Source: Octopus sinensis
Taxonomy: Eukaryota
Reading direction: 5' to 3'
NCBI RefSeq assembly: GCF_006345805.1
Contig: NC_042998.1
Span: forward strand, 47,740,001 to 47,804,000
DNA length: 64,000 nt
Shown here: in pieces, positions 1-43,650 of the stretch
Layout of the letters: each line of letters starts with the position of its first letter
Position numbering within the stretch: position 1 is the stretch's first letter
Notes under the pieces: model-generated
The model's input: the letters and a program-made list of their open reading frames with translations, nothing else
Databases searched by the model: none
Told to the model about the DNA's origin: nothing
Position numbers and translations under genes: made by a program

Positions 1-240
1 ACTTGTTGGGATAGTTTTGTTTCTGAAGGAATATATTAAGTTCTGCCAGTCGTTTCTCTCGTCTAACAGTATCACAGTATCTGTGACTATTGAGCATATG
101 CACCTTGCCATATTAAATGTTATGTTCCTTTTTGTATAGAAAGGGTGGCAAAATCTAAAATCTAAATATTGATGTGTGTCTGTTTTGTTGTAGAGGTCAG
201 TTGTAACTGTTTCGTTTTCTTTAATTATTAGGATATCCAT
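1..240 (-). pseudogene. Penelope-like element reverse transcriptase C-terminal (thumb) fragment, running off the window edge
   Basis: Minus strand translates MDILIIKENETVTTDLYNKTDTHQYLDFRFCHPFYTKRNITFNMARCICSIVTD, matching the PLE RT pattern FLDxxI..TxxYxKxTxxxxYLxxxSxHPxxxKxxIPxxxAxRIxxI. A frameshift at a GATACTGT duplication then gives RLAELNIFLQKQNYP. Confidence 0.8.
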
Positions 241-504
241 ATATTTCGATTTCCTTCTTTTCGCCCAATATTTACACGCTACTATCTGTAGCTTTATTAT
301 TATTATTTTTTTTTCGATATCTACTATTTCACGTTCCCTCGAAGATTATATATTCTTATCACGTCACCAATTATATATTTTAATCTTATTGATCTTGATT
401 TGATGAAAATCAACATGACCCAGGACTGATCTGAAAAACAATAAAGTGTTCAACTTCGGATCGTATGAACATTAAATCTAGGACTTCTGTTATTTTTATC
501 CTTA

Positions 505-7419: not shown

Positions 7420-8046
7420 ATAGAAATATCTTACAAAAAGGAAATAGAAACTACACGTGGTAAGGTAAGGGGAAGGTAAGAAAAATAAGTGCAAATGAAC
7501 ATTGGAAATCAAAAAAAGTAAAGGCTTTTTACGAAAAGTAACGAAAGATATATACAATTAGATGAACTGAGGTAGGAATAAAAGTAATAAAAGTCATTAT
7601 TGTGAATTGTTAAAGAGATTCAAAAGCATACCGGTTTCGTAAGTTGCTAATCATTGCTTTGAATACAACTATCCATTGCTTTGAATGCAAACCGATTAAT
7701 GAACGGTGTCAGGTCTATTAGTCCCTGAGAAAAAAGATTATGTGTAAGGGAGGTAAGTAGTCCTGGATTTGGTGCAATTAGGTTAGATAAAGAAGTGTAA
7801 TGTGAATGGTGTAAGGGATGTATGGGGGTTAGTGGTATTAATTGAAAGGTTAGTAGTGTTCTGTATTATGTTATGTGCTCATATTTAGTTGGGGAAGATA
7901 TTTTTTGATGAAAGTTGCCTCTTTATTCATTCTTTGTTGCATTGAGGTGTTCTGTGAACATTGATAGAAGGGGAAAATTAGGAAAAAGATGTGTTCTCTA
8001 ACCTGTAACTGTCTGTATTGTGGGTGGTGGATTTGTTCTTTTTTTA
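7420..8046 (-). mobile_element. Penelope-like element 3' end: GIY-YIG C-terminus (8046-7871) plus pLTR-like region with a decayed hammerhead
   Basis: KEQIHHPQYRQLQVREHI..FLIFPFYQC..QRMNKEATFIKKYLPQLN resembles the PLE endonuclease C-terminus. A downstream GAAA-CCGG-TA motif lies at 7623-7660. Confidence 0.7.
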
Positions 8047-8274
8047 AATTTAGTTCATGGACCCCTAGTACAACCTTTGCGGACCCCAGGTTGTGAACCA
8101 CTGTGCTAGATGGATAATTTGGACTTAGACTCGCTTTACATAACAATTAATCGAAACAGTCACGGCTAGATTCGTTTTCGTCGTAGTTCTTCTCTATCAT
8201 AGTTGACTTGGAGTAAACAACTAATATGATACTTCTACACTGATATTCCGAGTAGAAGCACCACAAATAAACTG

Positions 8275-16255: not shown

Positions 16256-19200
16256 CTTATAATACTGACAACAACGTTTGTTTATTCCGTTTTGAATCTT
16301 ATTTTAACTGCAATTAACAGTCTTAATGTGCAATAAGACTTTTTTTTTTTGTTTTATGTCAAGATATGAAAAATATGCATCAGGTATCTAAATTGTGTTG
16401 ACGCTGTATTGGTCACTGAAGCATTTGACTTAGACCTAAGATAGAGATTGATTTGCAACACACAAGTCGCGGCTTTGATGTGTGAAATGATATTTGTTTT
16501 ACTAAGAAAACATTGCAAGTAAGAGATGTTGCTTCAACCATTAAAAGTTGTTGAAGATACTGTCAAGGCATCAGAAACGAAACAGAGAACAAAGAAAAAT
16601 TATTTCATATGATTTTCGTCTTTTACAACTGAAGTGAAAGGCAACAAGTGTCAGTCAGCCTCGGTAAAAATTAATAAAATTCCTGAATTTGATTAAATTT
16701 GTGGGTGAAACGCAAATTCAGACCCCTTTTCGGGAGAAAAAAAATAATCACAAAAGGAACACACGTTCCTCTGGATGAGCAAATTTATTCAATATACGAC
16801 TTGTTTTATTAAATTCAAAATTTTCATATAAAATACGATGGTAAATGCAACGTACAAAAAAGGATACAGAGTTTTATCTCATCTCCGAAAACTCTTAAAT
16901 CTCATTAAGTTGTCGAGCGTAACAAAACCAGTTTTCACAATGATCTCAGAAACATGACACATTCTGCAAAATCATTATGAAAACCAGTTTTGTCTTTCTT
17001 GATCCCCGATGCAAACCTCTAGTGTTCTGGTTACCAAATTTGGTTCTGAAGTGAAAAGAAAAGCAAAAGAAAAAAAATCGAAAAAATAATATATATTATA
17101 TAATTATGCTCTATGCGCCGGATTTCCAACGTAATTTCATACATATTACTCTGATTAGCACAAGGTCACAAACTTGTAGAAGACAATTGATCTCAGTAGA
17201 AGTTTGAAATTCATTAATATTGAAGGGATGCATCCCAAAGTCGGAGTCGATTCGATTTGTAACGAAAAAGTACGTCCATATTACTGCTAGATATTCCTTC
17301 TAGTACTCAGTGGTTTCTACAATTCCCATGGGATTTCTCCAAAACATATTATGCATTATTGAGCGGTTCCATCTAACAACCAAAACTATTTACTGTAACA
17401 AAACTTTACTATAATAAGTAACTGCTAGCACTAAGTCAGTAATTTGTAGAGGAGCGGGTTACTCGACTAAATCGACCTAGTATTTCACTGGGTAGATTTT
17501 TATCGACCCCAGAGGGATGAAAGTCAGGATTTGAATCTGGGATGTAAAGAGCTGATAAAAATTAAGTGGGAAGTTACAATATCAAAGACTTTTGTTAAGT
17601 AGATTAACCATGTAAAGGAATTTCAACAAACAAGAATAGTCCAGGTTACATTATTGCATAAAACCTTGGTTCAGTCCCAACATGAATGGAGCAAGCTCAT
17701 TTTGAAAGTATATATTTTATATTTATCCAGAAACGGACGACTGAACACCACTTTATAGAGGCAGCATGGAAAGCAGTTACCTGCTCTCTGCACTAGATTT
17801 ACCGTTCCTACAGTTAACAATAAATATAAAAGGAAGTTTTTTCCGTAAGCTAGTTAGTTTATATGCTACACCAAACAATAATAGTTCCACAGAGAGAAAC
17901 AGAGTAAATTAACCAATATTATGTAATAATATACAAAAAGAGGAATCTCATTTCGTTGGTTTATTTTCGATCTAAAAGGATACGATACAACATCTGTCAT
18001 TCCAGTTTTTCCAAGTGATGACAATTCCAGGGCTTGTATTTGTCTGAAACAATCGAAAATGAAAATATAATTTAGCCGTTACTATATCATTGAATTACAT
18101 TTTTCTTTCTTTACTCTTCTGATGTAAAATCTTTTCATTGTGTTAATTAAAATCTCCACAACAGAACGATACAACATCGTACAAAGAAAATAGTTGAGAA
18201 AGAAATATGAGACATGCATTATAAAAAGTCACTGGCAATTGTTATGGTTTCCTTATCATTATTATATATTTCGTGGTAGGGGTTTAAGTGTGGCTAAATT
18301 AAACAATAGATTAACATGTGACTTTAGGGTTTAAAGGAAACGGTCAACTAGTGCTGAAAGGAAAGAAGAGAAAGAGGCTGCGAACCACGAAAATTCTCGC
18401 AAACACACCCTACCACCCTTTCCCCAGTGTGCAAACTTGCTGAAGGACTTGGTAGTGTTGAGTAGGGAAAGAAATCTGAAGAACAATGCATTTTTATTAA
18501 GAAATCCAGGTCGGTGGTGGGGGTGAACATAGAGAGCCTCAGAATGTTTCATAAAAACATGAAATGCATAATAAACGAATGAACAATATTTACATACCGA
18601 GTTAAAATCTAGCCATTAGTCACATCTTCATTGCATGTGTGTGTGTGTGTGTGCTTGTTTTTGATTGACAAGTTCGCATTTACAAATTTAATGAGGATAC
18701 ATTCAGCCTTACTATCTAAATAGAACCTGTGGTCAAACTACAGGACTCTCAACAAGACTACACCCGAGAATAACTCGACTAGTTTCGCTTGATTAATATC
18801 AGCCTATCAATAAATGATGAATTTGAGTAGACACTCTTGATAAGAGAGCAGTAATCAGTCGAAACCAGCTGAGCTGTTCTCAGATTCTCCTGCATTTATC
18901 CATAAGTTTTATCCATAAATTCGAATTCGTCAACTTAACTGACAGAATTCGTCAGCTTGACTGACAGAATATATCCATCAAACATCTGCATATGAGCTTA
19001 TATGCAATTTACCCCCTCACACACCGTTACAGGAGTGTGTAAATGAGCGTGTGCTAGAGCTTCGATATATCTCGACAATGAACATGAATGAAATGATGAT
19101 GAAACTAAACTAATCGAGTCAGAGTTGATCTGCCCTTCCGATCTGAAACAGGTCTTATTTCAATAAGTTCTCTCTTTGCAAATCATAGCCAATGACCTGA

Positions 19201-37751: not shown

Positions 37752-38279
37752 GAAGTCGATTCAAGATTAAGTATCAATTAAAAAAAAAACAACTGCGTGC
37801 AGGATGAAATAAAAAAGAAAAAAAAAACGAAAATCGAATAATAACTTACAATGATGAAGAAACATTCTGTAAATAAATTCACTTCGGAATAAATTTTTCT
37901 GCTGAAATAAATAGAAATTAATACATTAAAACAAATTCAATGATTTCAAGCAGAAAATTAATTTAGAATTTTTAGAAGACTACAGAAGAAGAAAAAATTA
38001 TAGTGAAAATTGCATAACTGTTTCCCTCCGAGTTGAAGTTGATCATCCGTATTCTCCAAGTGGGTGTTTATTGTGAGATTTTTTTTTTCAAATGTTGACA
38101 TGTTTGCTTACACAAGACAGTGTTATAAACCACATGATTCTAGACGGAACAGAAGAACCACACCATAATATCACGCCATATCTTACGGCGCCATATCATA
38201 CCATGCAATGATATAGCACATATTAAGCATTAACAACAACAACAACAACAGCAACAGCAACAACAACAACAACAACAAT

Positions 38280-38640
38280 TCTTTCTAAATTTGGTACAAG
38301 GCTAGGAATTCTGAGTGGGGGGGGGGAAGTAGCAAGCCGATTACATCAACCCCCACCTCGTACACACATACATGCCAAAGGATAAATGGCAAAGTTGAAC
38401 ATCAGTGGTATTTGAACTAAGAAGGTAACGAGCCGAATGAAATGCCGCTAGGCATTTTGTCCGACATGCTAACGAATCAGCCAGTTTTTTTTTTTTAATA
38501 GTGATTTCAAATTCTGACACAAGGCCAGCAATTTTATAGAGAGAGAAACAGGTCGGTTATATCGACCGTACAGCCCGAACTCACAACGTAAAAAGCCGGA
38601 AGAAACGGTATTCAGCATTTTGTCCGACGCGCACTGGCTT
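38280..38640 (-). mobile_element. two decayed SINE family B copies
   Basis: Each starts with AAATTTGGTACAAGGC or AAATTCTGACACAAGGCC and contains GCATTTTGTCCGAC. Confidence 0.7.
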
Positions 38641-38660
38641 TTAAATAATAATAATAATAA

Positions 38661-39221
38661 TCAATTCTTTTTTATTGGCCACAAGGGCTGACACGCATGA
38701 TTACATAAAGGGACAAGACCGGACGAAAGGTTACAAAGGGTTTTGCCGTTTTTGAAAAACATCGAGTAAAAATCTTTATAACAACTTATAAAATTCAACA
38801 ATGAAAAACTCCCAAAAGGGGGAGACGTTTCGAAAGGTTCCTGGTGGAAAAACCCTACAAAAGCCAACGGGAGCCTGGTAAAAAAAAAGGGGTGTAGAGA
38901 GTCCCCTTTTTTTTCTCCTTTTGCATTACCTTTTTGAAATCACAGGCGAAACCTGAGAACTGGTCCATTTGTACAGGCCAGTCTCGCACAATTCACCCAC
39001 CTTTCATAAAACTTGCTATCGGACAGCACTTTCCTCTCTAACCTCATCTTCCTTTTCAAGTGAAACTTGAAAAAGTTGATGAGGCCTTGACCAAAGAGGA
39101 AAGTGTCTGTCTTTAGCCCTTTCAAACGAGTCCACCACACGACCTCTTTCGCCACAGCCACTAGGCACAAGAAAACGACCTCGCTCTCCTTGTTAAAGGA
39201 GGTCGGCGGGGCAATCTTCAC
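38661..39221 (-). mobile_element. 5'-truncated L1/Tx1-type LINE: ORF2 C-terminus (39221-38940) plus 3'UTR
   Basis: Open frame ..VVFLCLVAVAKEVVWWTR..LINFFKFHLKRKMRLERKVL..FYERW resembles the L1/Tx1 C-terminal AKxxIWxxR..FxxxW pattern. AATAAA lies near the 3' end and both flanks are (TAA)n. Confidence 0.7.
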
Positions 39222-39247
39222 TAATAATAATAATTAATAAATAAATA

Positions 39248-39740
39248 AAAGATGGGCTACAGCAAATATTCTGCTCAATACCACAGATTTGCTTGTCGGT
39301 TGTTTGATCTTAACCAGTTGAGCATGTCCCTTAGTGGCTGACGATATGTGCATCTCTGATCACGACCAGAAGTAGTGGGGGAGCATCATAGCCGTGTGTT
39401 GAAAGGAAATCTTAGAGGTTTGGATAATTCACCTTTGTAAACGTGGGTGGTTCGTTGAACATCCTTAAACAATCCTTATTCAGGAACCCTTTGAGCGGGA
39501 TAGGCTACTCGACCAGAAGAAAATTCTAACTGGGCCCCACCTGCAAGGTCATGCGCTGTTTATTTTGATATGAGATCACCATGTCGTGCACATATGGTTG
39601 TGATGCATGTGCCTGGTGTACCCTTATCAGACGGGTAGTCATGATGGGTATACTGGGCTTCGTATATTTTACCCCAGTGTCACTTTGATGGCATGCACTG
39701 CTCTCTCACTCAATAATAATAATAATAATAATAATAATAA
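39248..39740 (+). mobile_element. retroposon 3' fragment ending in an (AAT)n tail, family unassigned
   Basis: GC-richer block between TAA repeats, ending CTCTCTCACTC(AAT)n. Confidence 0.5.
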
Positions 39741-40665
39741 TTGCTTCAAATTTTGGTACAAGGCCAGCAATTTTGTTATGACAGGACAGGTCGGTTACAT
39801 CGACCGCAAAGCTTGAACTCAGAACGTAAAGAGCCGGAAGAAATGCCGCTCAGCATTTTGTTCGATGCGCACCACCGTTTTAATAATTGTTTCAAATTTT
39901 GGGACAAGGCCAGCAATTTTGAGGGAAGTGGGTTAGTCGATTGCATCAACTCTAGTTTGTAACTGCTACTTTATTTTATCTGATCAAAAGAAAGAAAAGC
40001 AAAGCTCACTTTGGCGAATTTTGAAACCAGAATATAAAGAAAGGGAGTAAATTTCGCAAAGCATTTTTTTTTTCTGATGCTCAGACGATTCTACCAGCGT
40101 CGCCTTTAATAATGGTTTCTGATTCCGGTACAAGGTCAACAATTTTGAGGAAAGAGGTGTTTGTAATTCGATTAAATCGTCCCCACTTTGAACGGTGCCA
40201 TGTTTTATCGACTCTGGGAGAGATGAAAGGCGAAATTGACCCCGGCAGTATTTTAATTCAGAACGAAAGAAATAATAACCCTTTCTAGTATAGACTTAAG
40301 GCCTGAAATTTGGGGGATTGGACCAGCTAATTACATCAACCAATTACATCAATTACATAACTGGTACGAAGAAAGGCAAAGTTGACCCCGGTGGCATTTG
40401 AAATCAGAACACGAAGACAAGCGAAATACCTATTTCTTTACTACCCACAAGGGGCTAAACACAGAGGGGACAAACAAGGACAGACAAACAGATTAAGTCG
40501 ATTATATCGATCCCAGTGCGTAACTGGTACTTATTTAATCGATCCCGAAAGGATGAAAAGCAAAGTCCACCTCGGCGGAATTTGAACTCAGAACGTAGCG
40601 GCAGATGAAATACCGCTTGAGCATTTCGTCCGGTGCACTAACGATTCTGCCAGCTCACCGCCTAA
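39741..40665 (-). mobile_element. cluster of about five SINE family B copies or fragments
   Basis: Recurrent TTTCAAATTTTGG..ACAAGG(C/T)CA..AATTTT tails and a near-intact copy at ~40430-40665. Confidence 0.8.
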
Positions 40666-40682
40666 ATAACAACAACAACAAC

Positions 40683-40755
<73 letters not shown>
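40666..40755. repeat. (AAC)n(AAT)n microsatellite
   Basis: Direct observation. Confidence 0.95.
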
Positions 40756-41056
40756 TAGATTACGAGAAATGGTAGGGCGATAATTACGTTGCAATATGTA
40801 GTTTGATCATAAACAGTGTCGGCGTTGTTTTACTTCTTTTTATGTGACTAAAATCATCAGCAGGATAAAAAATACTGGATCATCCACCTACACAGATACT
40901 GACCTTGTGTCATGTCAAATGTAATCAATAATACTTAAAAGAAACAAATTTTCGAAACCGACCAATGCTAGTAACTATCTTGTGTACACTTTTATATTTA
41001 CCGTTTGTTACTATATAGGTATCGAACAGACGCTAATAATAATAATAATAATAATG

Positions 41057-41252
41057 ATGGTTTCAAATTTCGCCACAAGGGCAGCAATCTGGGGAGAGGG
41101 GGTTAGTCGATTACATCGACCCCAGTGTTCGAAAGGATGAAAAGTAAAGTTGTTCTCGGTGGAATTTGAACTCAGAACGTAAACGCGGACGAAATGCTGC
41201 TAAGCATCTAAGCGTTTTTCCCCGACTAACGATTCCACCAGCTCATCGCCCT
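41057..41252 (-). mobile_element. SINE family B
   Basis: GGTTTCAAATTT..GTCGATTACATCGACCCCAG..GGAATTTGAACTCAGAACG. Confidence 0.8.
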
Positions 41253-41319
41253 AACAACAATTTTACTTTACGTGCGTGCATGCCTGCATGCATGCATACA
41301 TACATACATACATACATAA

Positions 41320-41632
41320 CTGGCAGTCCTTCGCTTACGACGACGAGGGCTCCAGTGGTTCCGATCAACAGAACAGCCTACTCGTAAAATTCACGTGCAA
41401 GTGGCTGAGCACGCCACAGACACACACCCTTAACGTGTAGATTCGGTATGACAGAATGTGACGAAGCCGGCCTTTTTGAATTACAGGTACATCTCATTTT
41501 TGCCAGTTGAGTGGACTGGAGCCACGAGAAATAAAGTCTCTTGCTCAAAGATACAACGCGCCGTTGGGAAACGAACTCGCGACCTTACGATCCTGAGCCG
41601 AATACCTTAAACTCTATGCCACGAGCCTTCAC
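41320..41632 (-). mobile_element. SINE family C (tail type 3)
   Basis: Paralog of 30220-30582. Confidence 0.8.
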
Positions 41633-41651
41633 ATACATACATACATACGCA

Positions 41652-41683
<32 letters not shown>

Positions 41684-41756
41684 CACATACATACATACAT
41701 ACATACATACATACATGCATGCATACATACATGAGTATATATTACTACATATTACT

Positions 41757-41990
41757 AAGGGCGGCGAGCTGGCAGAAACGTTAGCGCGCCGGGTGAAATG
41801 CTCCGCGGTATTTCGTCTGTCGTAACGTTCTGAGTTCAAATTCCGCTGAGGTCGACTTTGCCTTTCATCCTTTCGGGGTCGATAAATAAAGTACCAGTTT
41901 CGTACTGGGGTCGATGTAATCGACTTAATCCCTTTGTCTGTCCTTGTTTGTCCCTTCTATGTTTAGCCCCTTGTCGACAATAAAGAAATA
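41757..41990 (+). mobile_element. SINE family B, CpG-intact copy
   Basis: GGCGGCGAGCTGGCAGAAACGTTAGC...GTCGACTTTGCCTTTCATCCTTTCGGGGTCGAT. Confidence 0.9.
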
Positions 41991-42231
41991 TATTACTAGA
42001 TATCGAACAAACTCATATTATTCTTTAACAAGAACAACATTGACTGTGACTTTGAAGTTTCGACCAGTCCAGTGATGCTTGTTAAAGAATAATTTGTATT
42101 CTACAATAAAAGTATAACCCTTCAGTTTAAATTGAAATTATTTTTATTATAACATAAAAATAAACATTAATAATATATATATATATATATATATAATATA
42201 TATATATATATACACGCATCATATATATATA

Positions 42232-42610
42232 GTGAAGTATATTTGCCACTTAAATGTGGCTAACCCCTAAGGGTGGATGCTACTGTAGCTTGTAGCCCCA
42301 GGAGGACATCTCCTCCAACTGGCTATTGACACACGTTCTGTGCCCTATCACGCTGATGACGGGTCAATACCCAGAAACTCGAGTCCGTGTGTATCATAGG
42401 TTGAAGACGGGAAGGATGGCTTCCCTTTGCAAATACTGATAGAGCACAGAAAGTGTGTCAATAGCCAGCTGGAGGAGGTGTCTTCCTGGGGCTACAAGCT
42501 ACAGTAGCATCCACCCTTAGGGGTCAGCCACATTTAAGTGACAAATATACTTCACGATGTGTTGCAGCTACTGCTTAAACCTCGCTCAGAGATTTATTAT
42601 TGCTTATATA
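42232..42610 (+). mobile_element. non-autonomous Penelope-type terminal repeat with a 119-bp inverted 5' duplication
   Basis: 42232-42350 versus 42437-42555 are inverted with 7 mismatches. A hammerhead lies in the loop and the element is flanked by TA-rich repeats. The PLE assignment is inference. Confidence 0.65.
42349..42389 (+). ncRNA. minimal type I hammerhead ribozyme
   Basis: CACG-CTGATGA-C-GGGT-CAAT-ACCC-A-GAAA-CTCGAG-TC-CGTG. It has a full catalytic core, stem I CACG/CGTG, stem II GGGT/ACCC and a palindromic stem III. The predicted GUC cleavage site is after 42385. Confidence 0.8.
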
Positions 42611-42734
42611 TATTGATTGATTGATTGATTAACTGATAGATAATTAACATGTTATTTTGTACTTTCTATGGTCAGTTTAACATTTCGGTTGAGTCACTGA
42701 AATTTCTGAATCATGTGATTCTCCATTGTTGTGG

Positions 42735-43140
42735 GTGCAGCAGGGTGTGTGATAAGAAGTTTGCTTCTCAACTACATGTTTGCAGGTTCAATCCTACTGC
42801 GTGACACCTTGAACAAGTGTACTTTAACTAAAGCCTTACGAGTGGATTTGATAGCAACTAAAAGAACCCCGTCGCACGTGTGTGTGTGTGTGTGCGTGTG
42901 TGTGTGTGTGCGTGTGTGTGCGTGTGTGTGTGTTCGTTTGTCCTCCACCGCCGCTTGACAGGTGGTATTGTTATGTTTACGTCCCGATAACTTCGCGGTT
43001 CCGCAAAATCGAACGACAGAATAAGAAACAAGCTTAACAAAAACCAACACAGTTTATTCGACTTGTTCGAATAAACTATTCAAGGCAGTAAGTGCCCCAG
43101 CATTGCCGCAGTTCAATGACTAAAAAAAGGTAAAAGACAA
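42735..43140 (+). mobile_element. SINE family A
   Basis: GTGTGATAAGAAGTTTGCTTC..CACTGCGTG-like segment and tail AATGACTAAAA. Confidence 0.75.
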
Positions 43141-43484
43141 ATGTACTTTAAAATTTCCAACTTCATAATACAGAGAATATCGAGAAAAGAATACTGTGGG
43201 CGCGCGCGTATATGTGTAATTAAAAAACAACGTAAGTTACAGTGAAGATGCTGGTTCTGAACCTTCGTTCTTTTCTATATTTTGGTTGAGGATTTTGATT
43301 TTAAAACAAATACGTTCTAATAAATGTTAAATATAATTTTAATCTTATGTATAGTTTAGCAGTGTAATTATATTTCTTCAACTTATAACTAACTTCAATA
43401 CGGCCTTCAAATTTTAAAATGCTAACCGCTCTTAATATAAATCAATTGATTGCTAAGAAGCGTTAACGCACACGCATGTATACT

Positions 43485-43650
43485 ATTTCTGAGTTCAAAT
43501 TCCGCCGAGGTCGACTTTGCCTCTCATCCTTCCGGGGTCGATAAATTAAGTACCAGTTGCGCACTGGGATCGATGTAATCGACTTAATCCCTTTGTCTGT
43601 CCTTGTTTGTCTCCTCTGTGTTTAGCCAATTGTGGGTAGTAAAGAAATAT
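43485..43650 (+). mobile_element. SINE family B, 5'-truncated
   Basis: TTCTGAGTTCAAATTCCGCCGAGGTCGACTTTGCC. Confidence 0.85.

What the first reader, a model, noticed from the sequence alone, without database searches (positions are those of the whole stretch)
42232..42610. Hammerhead ribozyme capping a 119-bp RNA duplex: a candidate non-autonomous ribozyme retroelement or conformational switch
Seen: arms 42232-42350 and 42437-42555 are inverted with 7 mismatches (on plus-strand RNA four A-C, two G-U, one G-A). The 86-nt loop begins with a complete hammerhead core: CUGAUGA 42353-59, stem II GGGU/ACCC, GAAA 42374-77, palindromic CUCGAG and GUC ending 42385. Stem I (CACG/CGUG) can extend via CCUAU/AUAGG across a 6-nt bulge. 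A second hairpin, GGGAAG/CUUCCC, follows. The 5' strand of stem I overlaps the end of the left arm, so the long duplex and the ribozyme fold compete for CCUAUCA. Established: minimal hammerheads with palindromic stem III and inverted terminal duplications are hallmarks of Penelope-like elements and related retrozymes. Inference: this is a protein-free ~380-bp mobile unit whose RNA might self-cleave co-transcriptionally or as a dimer, and otherwise forms an ADAR/Dicer substrate. Caveats: a C-A mismatch lies at the base of stem II, and the inversion may be a one-off insertion by-product.
Basis: partly seen in the sequence, partly recalled or inferred. Interest (0 to 1): 0.85.

Follow-up and report, generated by a model that had tools for sequence, protein, structure and literature searches.

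The report
Two-armed hammerhead retrozyme insertion
The hairpin is one broken, likely inactive copy of a 350-base repeat that carries a hammerhead ribozyme motif; across the family, mirror-image copies almost always end at two different fixed sites, one per arm, which suggests that a Penelope-type enzyme likely copies one RNA from both ends of a DNA break.

Summary
The inverted arms and the hammerhead core are real. The switch and the self-copying hairpin are not supported. The core belongs to a 349-353-nt non-coding unit with over 1,000 hammerhead-bearing copies here, found singly, in tandem and as head-to-head pairs in (TA)n. This is a non-LTR retrozyme family. The window's junction is unique, clips the native stem I, and the long duplex does not change the predicted ribozyme fold. 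The CCUAU/AUAGG extension is accidental. The C-A mismatch is a family trait; a younger sister subfamily has the canonical G-C. The family is more informative than this copy. In 43 of 44 two-armed insertions with both ends assignable, one arm ends at site S and the other about 45 nt further at site T (the Penelope 'tail'). Arms of one insertion share variants (26 of 26 young cases), run through the cleavage site for several units, and in 17 of 43 cannot be copies of each other. Best reading: both ends of a break prime reverse transcription on one circular or multimeric RNA. Cleavage, circles and the donor enzyme were not shown. This scan noted similar Penelope-type palindromes in other genomes.

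The parts
42173..42231 (.). (TA)n microsatellite, left part of the insertion target
   Evidence: TRF array; family 3' ends abut AT-rich DNA, 85% AT in the next 10 nt, TATA within 14 nt in 51 of 83 ends
42232..42350 (-). Left arm: inverted, 5'-truncated copy of 42437-42555, outer end at site S (no tail); holds no hammerhead
42349..42605 (+). Right arm: forward, 5'-truncated copy of the retrozyme unit (about 255 of 350 nt), outer end at site T
42349..42350 (+). Head-to-head junction with 2-nt microhomology; removes the upstream part of native stem I; unique in the genome
42349..42396 (+). Type I hammerhead motif: 4-bp remnant of stem I (native 6 + 4 bp), core 42353-59, stem II with C42360-A42373 at its base, GAAA 42374-77, 8-nt palindrome 42377-84, predicted cut after C42385
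   Evidence: cleavage untested
42550..42558 (+). Site S: first preferred 3' end of the family (inferred reverse-transcription start)
42559..42605 (+). 'Tail' between sites S and T, present on this arm only
   Evidence: compare PMC11167929
42606..42612 (.). Short (TA)n run, right part of the insertion target

Best explanation
The feature is one two-armed, 5'-truncated and likely inactive copy of a 350-nt non-coding hammerhead repeat (a non-LTR retrozyme) that occurs in over a thousand places in this genome, and its hairpin was likely made during insertion, when both ends of a break in a (TA)n run likely primed reverse transcription on the same RNA at two fixed start sites. Shown: unit length, tandem and head-to-head arrays, (TA)n targets, the two end sites, one site per arm, shared variants between arms, variable inner junctions. 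Inferred: tandem transcripts cut as double hammerheads through the shared palindromic stem III and close into circles. A Penelope-type RT/GIY-YIG protein working in trans cuts the target. One DNA end starts copying at site S and the other at site T, each may run round more than once, and the two cDNAs are joined head to head, mostly at short microhomologies. In this copy the join fell inside stem I, there is only one ribozyme, and no daughter copy exists.
For: Copy number: 401 matches to a 21-nt pattern of the window's subfamily A, 698 to the sister subfamily B core, reversed controls 0. Unit 349-353 nt, GC 42-43%, longest ATG frame 35-38 codons. Two-armed copies: 33 of 74 A insertions and 29 of 60 B insertions. 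One S end plus one T end in 21 of 22 A and 22 of 22 B cases with both ends assignable; no T+T (p 5e-6 and 2e-7 against a coin toss). Arms of one B insertion differ by 0.9% against 2.0% between insertions, closer in 26 of 26. In 17 of 43 S+T insertions neither arm lies within the other. B 5' ends are not enriched at the cut site, 2 of 85 against 1.7 expected, and arrays end exactly at S or T. Double-hammerhead fold costs +1.5 (B) and +1.8 (A) kcal/mol against +15 and +17 for two single folds. Stem III position 15.3/16.3 is U-A 63, U-G 24, C-G 11, C-A 2 among 100 listed matches. Young autonomous RT/GIY-YIG elements in the same genome also end in (TA)n, and one family shows the same one-site-per-arm rule in 6 of 7 two-armed loci. 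Two internal start sites and extension of both strands are shown in vitro for an Anolis element (PMC11167929).
Against: No cleavage, circle or transcript was shown. The donor enzyme was not identified: no meaningful DNA similarity between the unit and the autonomous elements examined. In old subfamily A the same-template signal is weak, 17 of 26 (8.1% against 10.1%). 11 of 33 A and 7 of 29 B two-armed copies have at least one end at neither site. The window copy itself is also compatible with fold-back copying. Arm similarity could come from gene conversion or from two identical RNAs. Samples were picked by searches that favour intact hammerheads, and the B sample comes from contigs C1 and C2 only. 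Subfamily A lacks the canonical pair next to the core and gets no Rfam hit. For the Anolis element, hammerhead cleavage was not needed for insertion in vitro (PMC11167929), so the template may be an uncut multimer and not a circle.
Confidence: 0.78

Rival explanations
1. The inverted arm arises by self-priming or fold-back: one cDNA is made and the enzyme then copies its own product, or an antisense template, with the endonuclease trimming the tail from one end.
For: Proposed for Penelope inversions in PMC3846280 and, for the tail, in PMC8557442. It explains shared variants between arms. 26 of 43 S+T insertions, the window copy included, have one arm contained in the other.
Against: 17 of 43 have neither arm contained in the other, so both needed the RNA template. 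Inner junctions of B copies are 0-9-nt overlaps in most cases and short inserts in others, with one 22-nt overlap, not long palindromes. Both end sites match the pattern of RT start sites in PMC11167929.
Confidence: 0.12
2. The unit is only the truncated pLTR end of an autonomous Penelope-like element that was not found, not an independent retrozyme.
For: The tail, 5' truncation and inverted copy are standard for autonomous elements (PMC8557442). Six loci join the unit directly to RT-type sequence: L005, L020, L142, L186, L189, L253.
Against: Where copies extend upstream, they run into the previous unit, up to at least 7 units in a row. The six junctions involve different families and different positions, and fit separate insertions into shared (TA)n targets followed by deletion. 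No pLTR examined resembles the unit.
Confidence: 0.06
3. One reading: the ~380-bp hairpin is itself the mobile unit, or a switch in which the long duplex and the ribozyme compete.
For: Left arm and stem I overlap by 2 nt. One other copy (L018) has an inverted arm starting at the same inner position, though joined elsewhere.
Against: Junction unique. The CCUAU pairing is absent from paralogues. The right arm does not alter the predicted fold cost, and the copy is 3-4 kcal/mol worse than native copies. Arms are 6% apart, against 0.9% in young copies.
Confidence: 0.03
4. Arrays and inversions come from DNA-level satellite processes (unequal crossover, replication errors) acting on single insertions.
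For: Local amplification is the model favoured in bioRxiv 10.64898/2026.07.22.740005 (Discussion). Units within an arm are as alike as the two arms (0.9%).
Against: Arrays end precisely at S or T, begin at scattered positions, sit in (TA)n, and both arms of one insertion can be multi-unit (L178, L180, L190). Crossover does not predict the S+T rule.
Confidence: 0.05

Closest known systems
Animal non-LTR retrozymes (Cervera and de la Pena 2020, PMC7229834; bioRxiv 10.64898/2026.07.22.740005)
   Same: Type I hammerhead in a non-coding, low-GC unit of 150-450 nt, monomers to multimers, strongly self-paired predicted circle (z -5.1 and -6.3), co-occurrence with Penelope-like elements. An axolotl hammerhead with a U-U mismatch at the base of helix II is a precedent for the C-A here.
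   Different: The passages read rest the Penelope link on co-occurrence and pLTR phylogeny; neither main text uses 'inverted' or 'tail' for retrozyme insertions. Here the insertions themselves carry the Penelope end signature. No cephalopod family turned up. Cleavage and circles are shown there and not here.
Insertion architecture of endonuclease-bearing Penelope-like elements: inverted 5'-truncated copy and one-sided 30-40-bp tail (PMC8557442, PMC3846280, PMC11167929)
   Same: Head-to-head arms, tail on one end, AT-rich and microsatellite targets, two end sites. In subfamily B, site S lies at the loop of a predicted hairpin, like the stem-loop start in the Anolis element.
   Different: No ORF; tail about 43-47 nt; arms can be several permuted units long; the one-site-per-arm rule is counted here (43 of 44), where the passages read say only 'often' or 'optionally'.
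Rfam Hammerhead_1 (RF00163) and dimer-type hammerheads of Penelope pLTRs (PMC4209133)
   Same: Conserved core, 6-bp stem I, palindromic stem III. Subfamily B scores 32.2 bits, E 8e-5, over the full model.
   Different: Below the gathering score of 34. Subfamily A has C-A (rarely C-U) where G10.1-C11.1 is highly conserved; it can also be read as one extra base on each side of a 4-bp stem II. Subfamily A gets no Rfam hit.
L1 twin priming (recalled, no call)
   Same: Two target ends prime cDNA on one RNA, giving a 5' inversion joined by microhomology.
   Different: In L1 the second primer anneals at a variable internal site and the arms do not overlap. Here both starts are fixed and the arms overlap, which needs a tandem or circular template, or two RNAs.

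Membership tests
non-LTR retrozyme | Type I hammerhead motif in the unit | tested here: met
   Core invariant across 12 hand-picked diverse copies, 6 of 19 pairs with two-sided changes, 0 of 500 shuffles reach the covariation score; Rfam E 8e-5 for subfamily B
non-LTR retrozyme | Unit of 150-450 nt in tandem copies, GC under 45% | tested here: met
   349 and 353 nt, GC 0.43 and 0.42, arrays of 2 to 7 or more units. The window copy itself is less than one unit.
non-LTR retrozyme | No protein-coding capacity | tested here: met
   Longest ATG frame 35-38 codons over the unit read in tandem
non-LTR retrozyme | Self-cleavage of the RNA | not testable with these tools
   Only folding energies
non-LTR retrozyme | Expression as linear and circular monomers | not testable with these tools
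   Only assembled contigs were offered, none on record as RNA
non-LTR retrozyme | No LTR, primer-binding site or polypurine tract | not tested
   No LTR-like ends seen in the maps; PBS and PPT were not searched
Penelope-mobilised element | Inverted 5'-truncated copy and a tail at one end | tested here: met
   62 of 134 insertions two-armed; 43 of 44 assignable ones S+T
Penelope-mobilised element | AT-rich or microsatellite targets | tested here: met
Penelope-mobilised element | Shares its 3' or pLTR sequence with an autonomous partner | tested here: inconclusive
   No meaningful similarity to the autonomous loci examined; the GIY-YIG search scored 150 of 5029 candidates and 30 loci plus 15 extensions were read, so other families may exist
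autonomous Penelope-like element | RT plus GIY-YIG ORF between pLTRs | tested here: not met
   No ORF in the unit; upstream sequence is the previous unit; RT-like hits in the window lie only near 70-243 and 7883-8101
MITE or replicating hairpin element | Same two termini and same centre in many copies | tested here: not met
   Junction unique; centres differ
Rfam Hammerhead_1 | Score at or above gathering threshold 34 | tested here: not met
   B 32.2 bits; A and window no hit

The most novel reading that the evidence does not exclude
This family records the Penelope integration mechanism on a non-coding template: a two-subunit RT engages one circular retrozyme RNA, each end of the broken DNA is assigned its own start site (one S, one T), and both roll round the circle before being joined head to head. 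That would explain at once the head-to-head inversions, the one-sided tail and ready-made tandem arrays, and would be direct genomic evidence that animal retrozymes are mobilised by Penelope-like enzymes. A long-lived subfamily also kept a hammerhead with C-A in place of G10.1-C11.1 while stem III still covaried, so it may be a functional natural core variant.
Probability: 0.5. Interest if true: 0.68.

Novelty: new member of a known kind. Interest (0 to 1): 0.48.

Why it matters
How Penelope-like elements make head-to-head inversions and a one-sided tail is still open: self-priming, endonuclease resolution and two internal start sites have all been proposed. Whether animal retrozymes are moved by these enzymes rests mostly on co-occurrence. 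A young, high-copy, 353-nt family with sharp ends turns both questions into counts and gives a short template for an in vitro assay. The flagged copy itself is a decayed insertion of little individual interest.

Tried and rejected
Conformational switch and replicating hairpin: rejected. Rfam on the window: no hammerhead hit. Expression: no RNA holder listed. Contigs of four runs laid on 42232-42860 show the family and its native upstream flank at 42349 in all four, but no listed piece bridges this copy's junction; contigs say nothing on ends, strand, editing or level. Donor search: the RT fragment beside L005 was first read as Naiad-like from memory, then found to belong to a 717-aa RT with a C-terminal GIY-YIG-like region; Pfam gave no hit for it. 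Several families with a cysteine linker and C-terminal GIY-YIG were read. None resembles the unit. Retrozyme copies near them at L229 and L223 are separate insertions with (TA)n between. The six direct junctions were dropped as evidence for a donor because they involve several families, and L253 joins an old retrozyme to a young element. Core against rest conservation in subfamily A (2.8% against 5.1%) was not used, since the loci were chosen by similarity. No target duplication could be called for the window copy because both flanks are (TA)n. One cited paper on dimer cleavage of small hammerheads (PMC5785218) could not be read, so a precedent for the C-A variant there is not excluded. A sequence look-up in earlier scan notes found nothing.

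Full report
Observation. The inverted arms are at the stated coordinates with seven mismatches of the stated kinds, and the fold is far beyond shuffles (z -26). The hammerhead core is as described. By itself the loose core pattern is not above chance in this window (3 matches against 5.7), and Rfam finds no hammerhead there, so paralogues were needed. The host is an animal with a bantam microRNA at 16919-17001. Its repeats look octopus-like to me, which is recall and was not tested.

The family. A search with 42340-42560 gave 3036 candidates, of which 40 were scored. All the other top copies start matching at window 42348-42351. Tandem loci show a 349-nt unit, and sequence upstream of a copy is the end of the previous unit, so the unit is circularly permuted. 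It is 43% GC, with no frame over 35 codons from ATG. A 21-nt pattern of this subfamily (A) matches 401 places. A sister subfamily (B, 353 nt, 81% identical) matches 698 places, and all 100 listed have the canonical core with G-C at the base of stem II and an A-U pair where A has G-C. B is young: 2.0% between insertions.

Is it a ribozyme? B scores 32.2 bits against Rfam Hammerhead_1, below the cut-off of 34, at E 8e-5; the two A loci given scored nothing. In 12 copies that I picked for diversity, 6 of 19 pairs show two-sided changes and no shuffle of 500 reaches the covariation score; slid controls are lower, the +2 slide reaching 0.173 against 0.209. In the stem III palindrome the third pair is U-A 63, U-G 24, C-G 11 and C-A 2 times among the first 100 of 401 matches (counted by eye; Fisher p 1e-4, not corrected for kinship). 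That pair would close only a 2-nt loop in a monomer, so it points to a dimer. On real tandem stretches the double-hammerhead fold costs 1.5-1.8 kcal/mol over the free ensemble, and two single folds cost 15-17. The C-A at the base of stem II is fixed in A and present in older, more diverged copies (L223, L253). Eight copies have another base there, seven U and one G. An axolotl retrozyme hammerhead has U-U at that place (PMC7229834), as does a pLTR motif of an autonomous element here. Cleavage is untested.

Is the hairpin a unit or a switch? A pattern across the junction matches only this place. The cost of the hammerhead fold is 9.3 kcal/mol for 42340-42405, 10.8 before the right arm is made and 9.2 with it, against 5-6 for native copies. 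The obstacle is local pairing of the core with the palindrome, not the long duplex. The seven mismatches are three departures from the family majority in the left arm and four in the right. The copy has one ribozyme, a clipped stem I and no progeny, so it is most likely inactive.

What the ends show. From 90 loci, 75 distinct A insertions were mapped, and one duplicate (L022) was dropped. 33 of 74 are two-armed, head to head. Outer ends fall near unit position 206 (S) or 250 (T): 21 have one of each, 1 has S+S, none T+T, and 11 have an end elsewhere. The 41 single-armed copies end at S 15, T 15, elsewhere 11. For B, 57 loci from contigs C1 and C2 gave 60 clusters: 29 two-armed (22 S+T, 7 with an end elsewhere or cut by the locus edge) and 31 single (25 S, 3 T, 3 other). 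Almost all sit in (TA)n. The two arms of one B insertion are closer to each other than to other copies in 26 of 26 testable cases (0.9% against 2.0%) and often share minority variants. In old A this holds in only 17 of 26. Arms can be several units long on both sides. 5' ends do not pile at the cut site (2 of 85 against 1.7). In 6 of 22 B and 11 of 21 A cases neither arm is contained in the other, which excludes copying of one cDNA from the other; the window copy is not among these. Inner junctions of B copies are mostly short overlaps, sometimes short inserts.

Mechanism. For an Anolis Penelope-type protein, both target strands are cut and extended, copying starts at two internal sites, the tail is the sequence between them, and a dimer is predicted (PMC11167929). 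The counts here fit one RNA engaged at both sites, one per DNA end. Passage through the cut site needs a circle or an uncut multimer; these cannot be told apart here. Fold-back or antisense self-priming (PMC3846280) fails on the non-nested cases. Crossover does not predict arrays that end at S or T.

The donor. The genome holds thousands of candidates for RT/GIY-YIG elements, some with open frames of 700-780 codons and 99% identity between copies. I call them Nematis-type and Neptune-type from recalled motifs and the linker described in PMC8557442; no tree was built. They end in (TA)n and have their own two end sites. The 717-aa family has one site per arm in 6 of 7 two-armed loci. None of those read resembles the unit in sequence. 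Six loci join the unit directly to such elements, but they involve several families and fit shared targets plus deletion. The donor stays open.

Literature seen. PMC4209133 and PMC11167929: parts 1-2 of 4. bioRxiv 10.64898/2026.07.22.740005: part 1 of 5, passages and Discussion. PMC7229834: passages and Discussion. Passages only: PMC8557442, PMC13282606, PMC8969392, PMC11722881, PMC3846280. PMC5785218: title only, from a reference list. No supplements were read, and they may list this family or the end rule. Six searches listed no paper on a cephalopod retrozyme, or on tails and inversions in retrozyme insertions; the library lacks most subscription papers and all repeat databases. Earlier scan notes describe similar Penelope-type palindromes in other genomes; these are unchecked leads.

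Verdict. Real motif, real hairpin, wrong unit. The copy is a decayed two-armed insertion of a retrozyme family, a new member of a known kind. The value lies in the family's end rule, which makes the Penelope inversion-and-tail question and the retrozyme-donor question testable.

Noticed in passing
window 16919-17001 (-): bantam microRNA precursor, 68 bits, 25 kb from the feature. If a long minus-strand primary transcript reached the feature, the hairpin would form there with G-U in place of A-C pairs and the ribozyme would be antisense.
   Followed up: no
L119 (717-aa element pLTR), L229/L232, L260: Hammerhead-like motifs in the pLTRs of three autonomous families differ from the canonical core: one begins CCGAAGA with an extra U before GAAA, one has U-U at the base of stem II, one has the U3-A8 swap (read by eye).
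   Followed up: partly
L121:1-2275: A 477-nt tandem repeat in two opposed arrays with a hammerhead-like core in each unit, beside a Penelope-type element; probably a second retrozyme family.
   Followed up: no
L189:589-1777: Two-armed pLTR of the 717-aa element joined to subfamily B close to the predicted cut sites of both hammerheads, with a short duplication at the join; either an RNA-level chimera or insertion plus deletion.
   Followed up: partly
L140, L141, L156, L170, L182, L185: Six single-armed subfamily B copies share the same 5' end at unit position 183, next to an ATAT that matches the (TA)n target.
   Followed up: no
L005, first 150 bases upstream of the RT remnant; L230:5519: Further small hammerhead-like motifs in other repeats, with stems unrelated to this family.
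   Followed up: no
window 70-243 and 7883-8101: Short remnants of Neptune-type RT and GIY-YIG sequence.
   Followed up: no
window 38200-43650: Many copies of a ~170-190-nt SINE-like repeat in both orientations surround the feature; two pairs could form further long duplexes.
   Followed up: no
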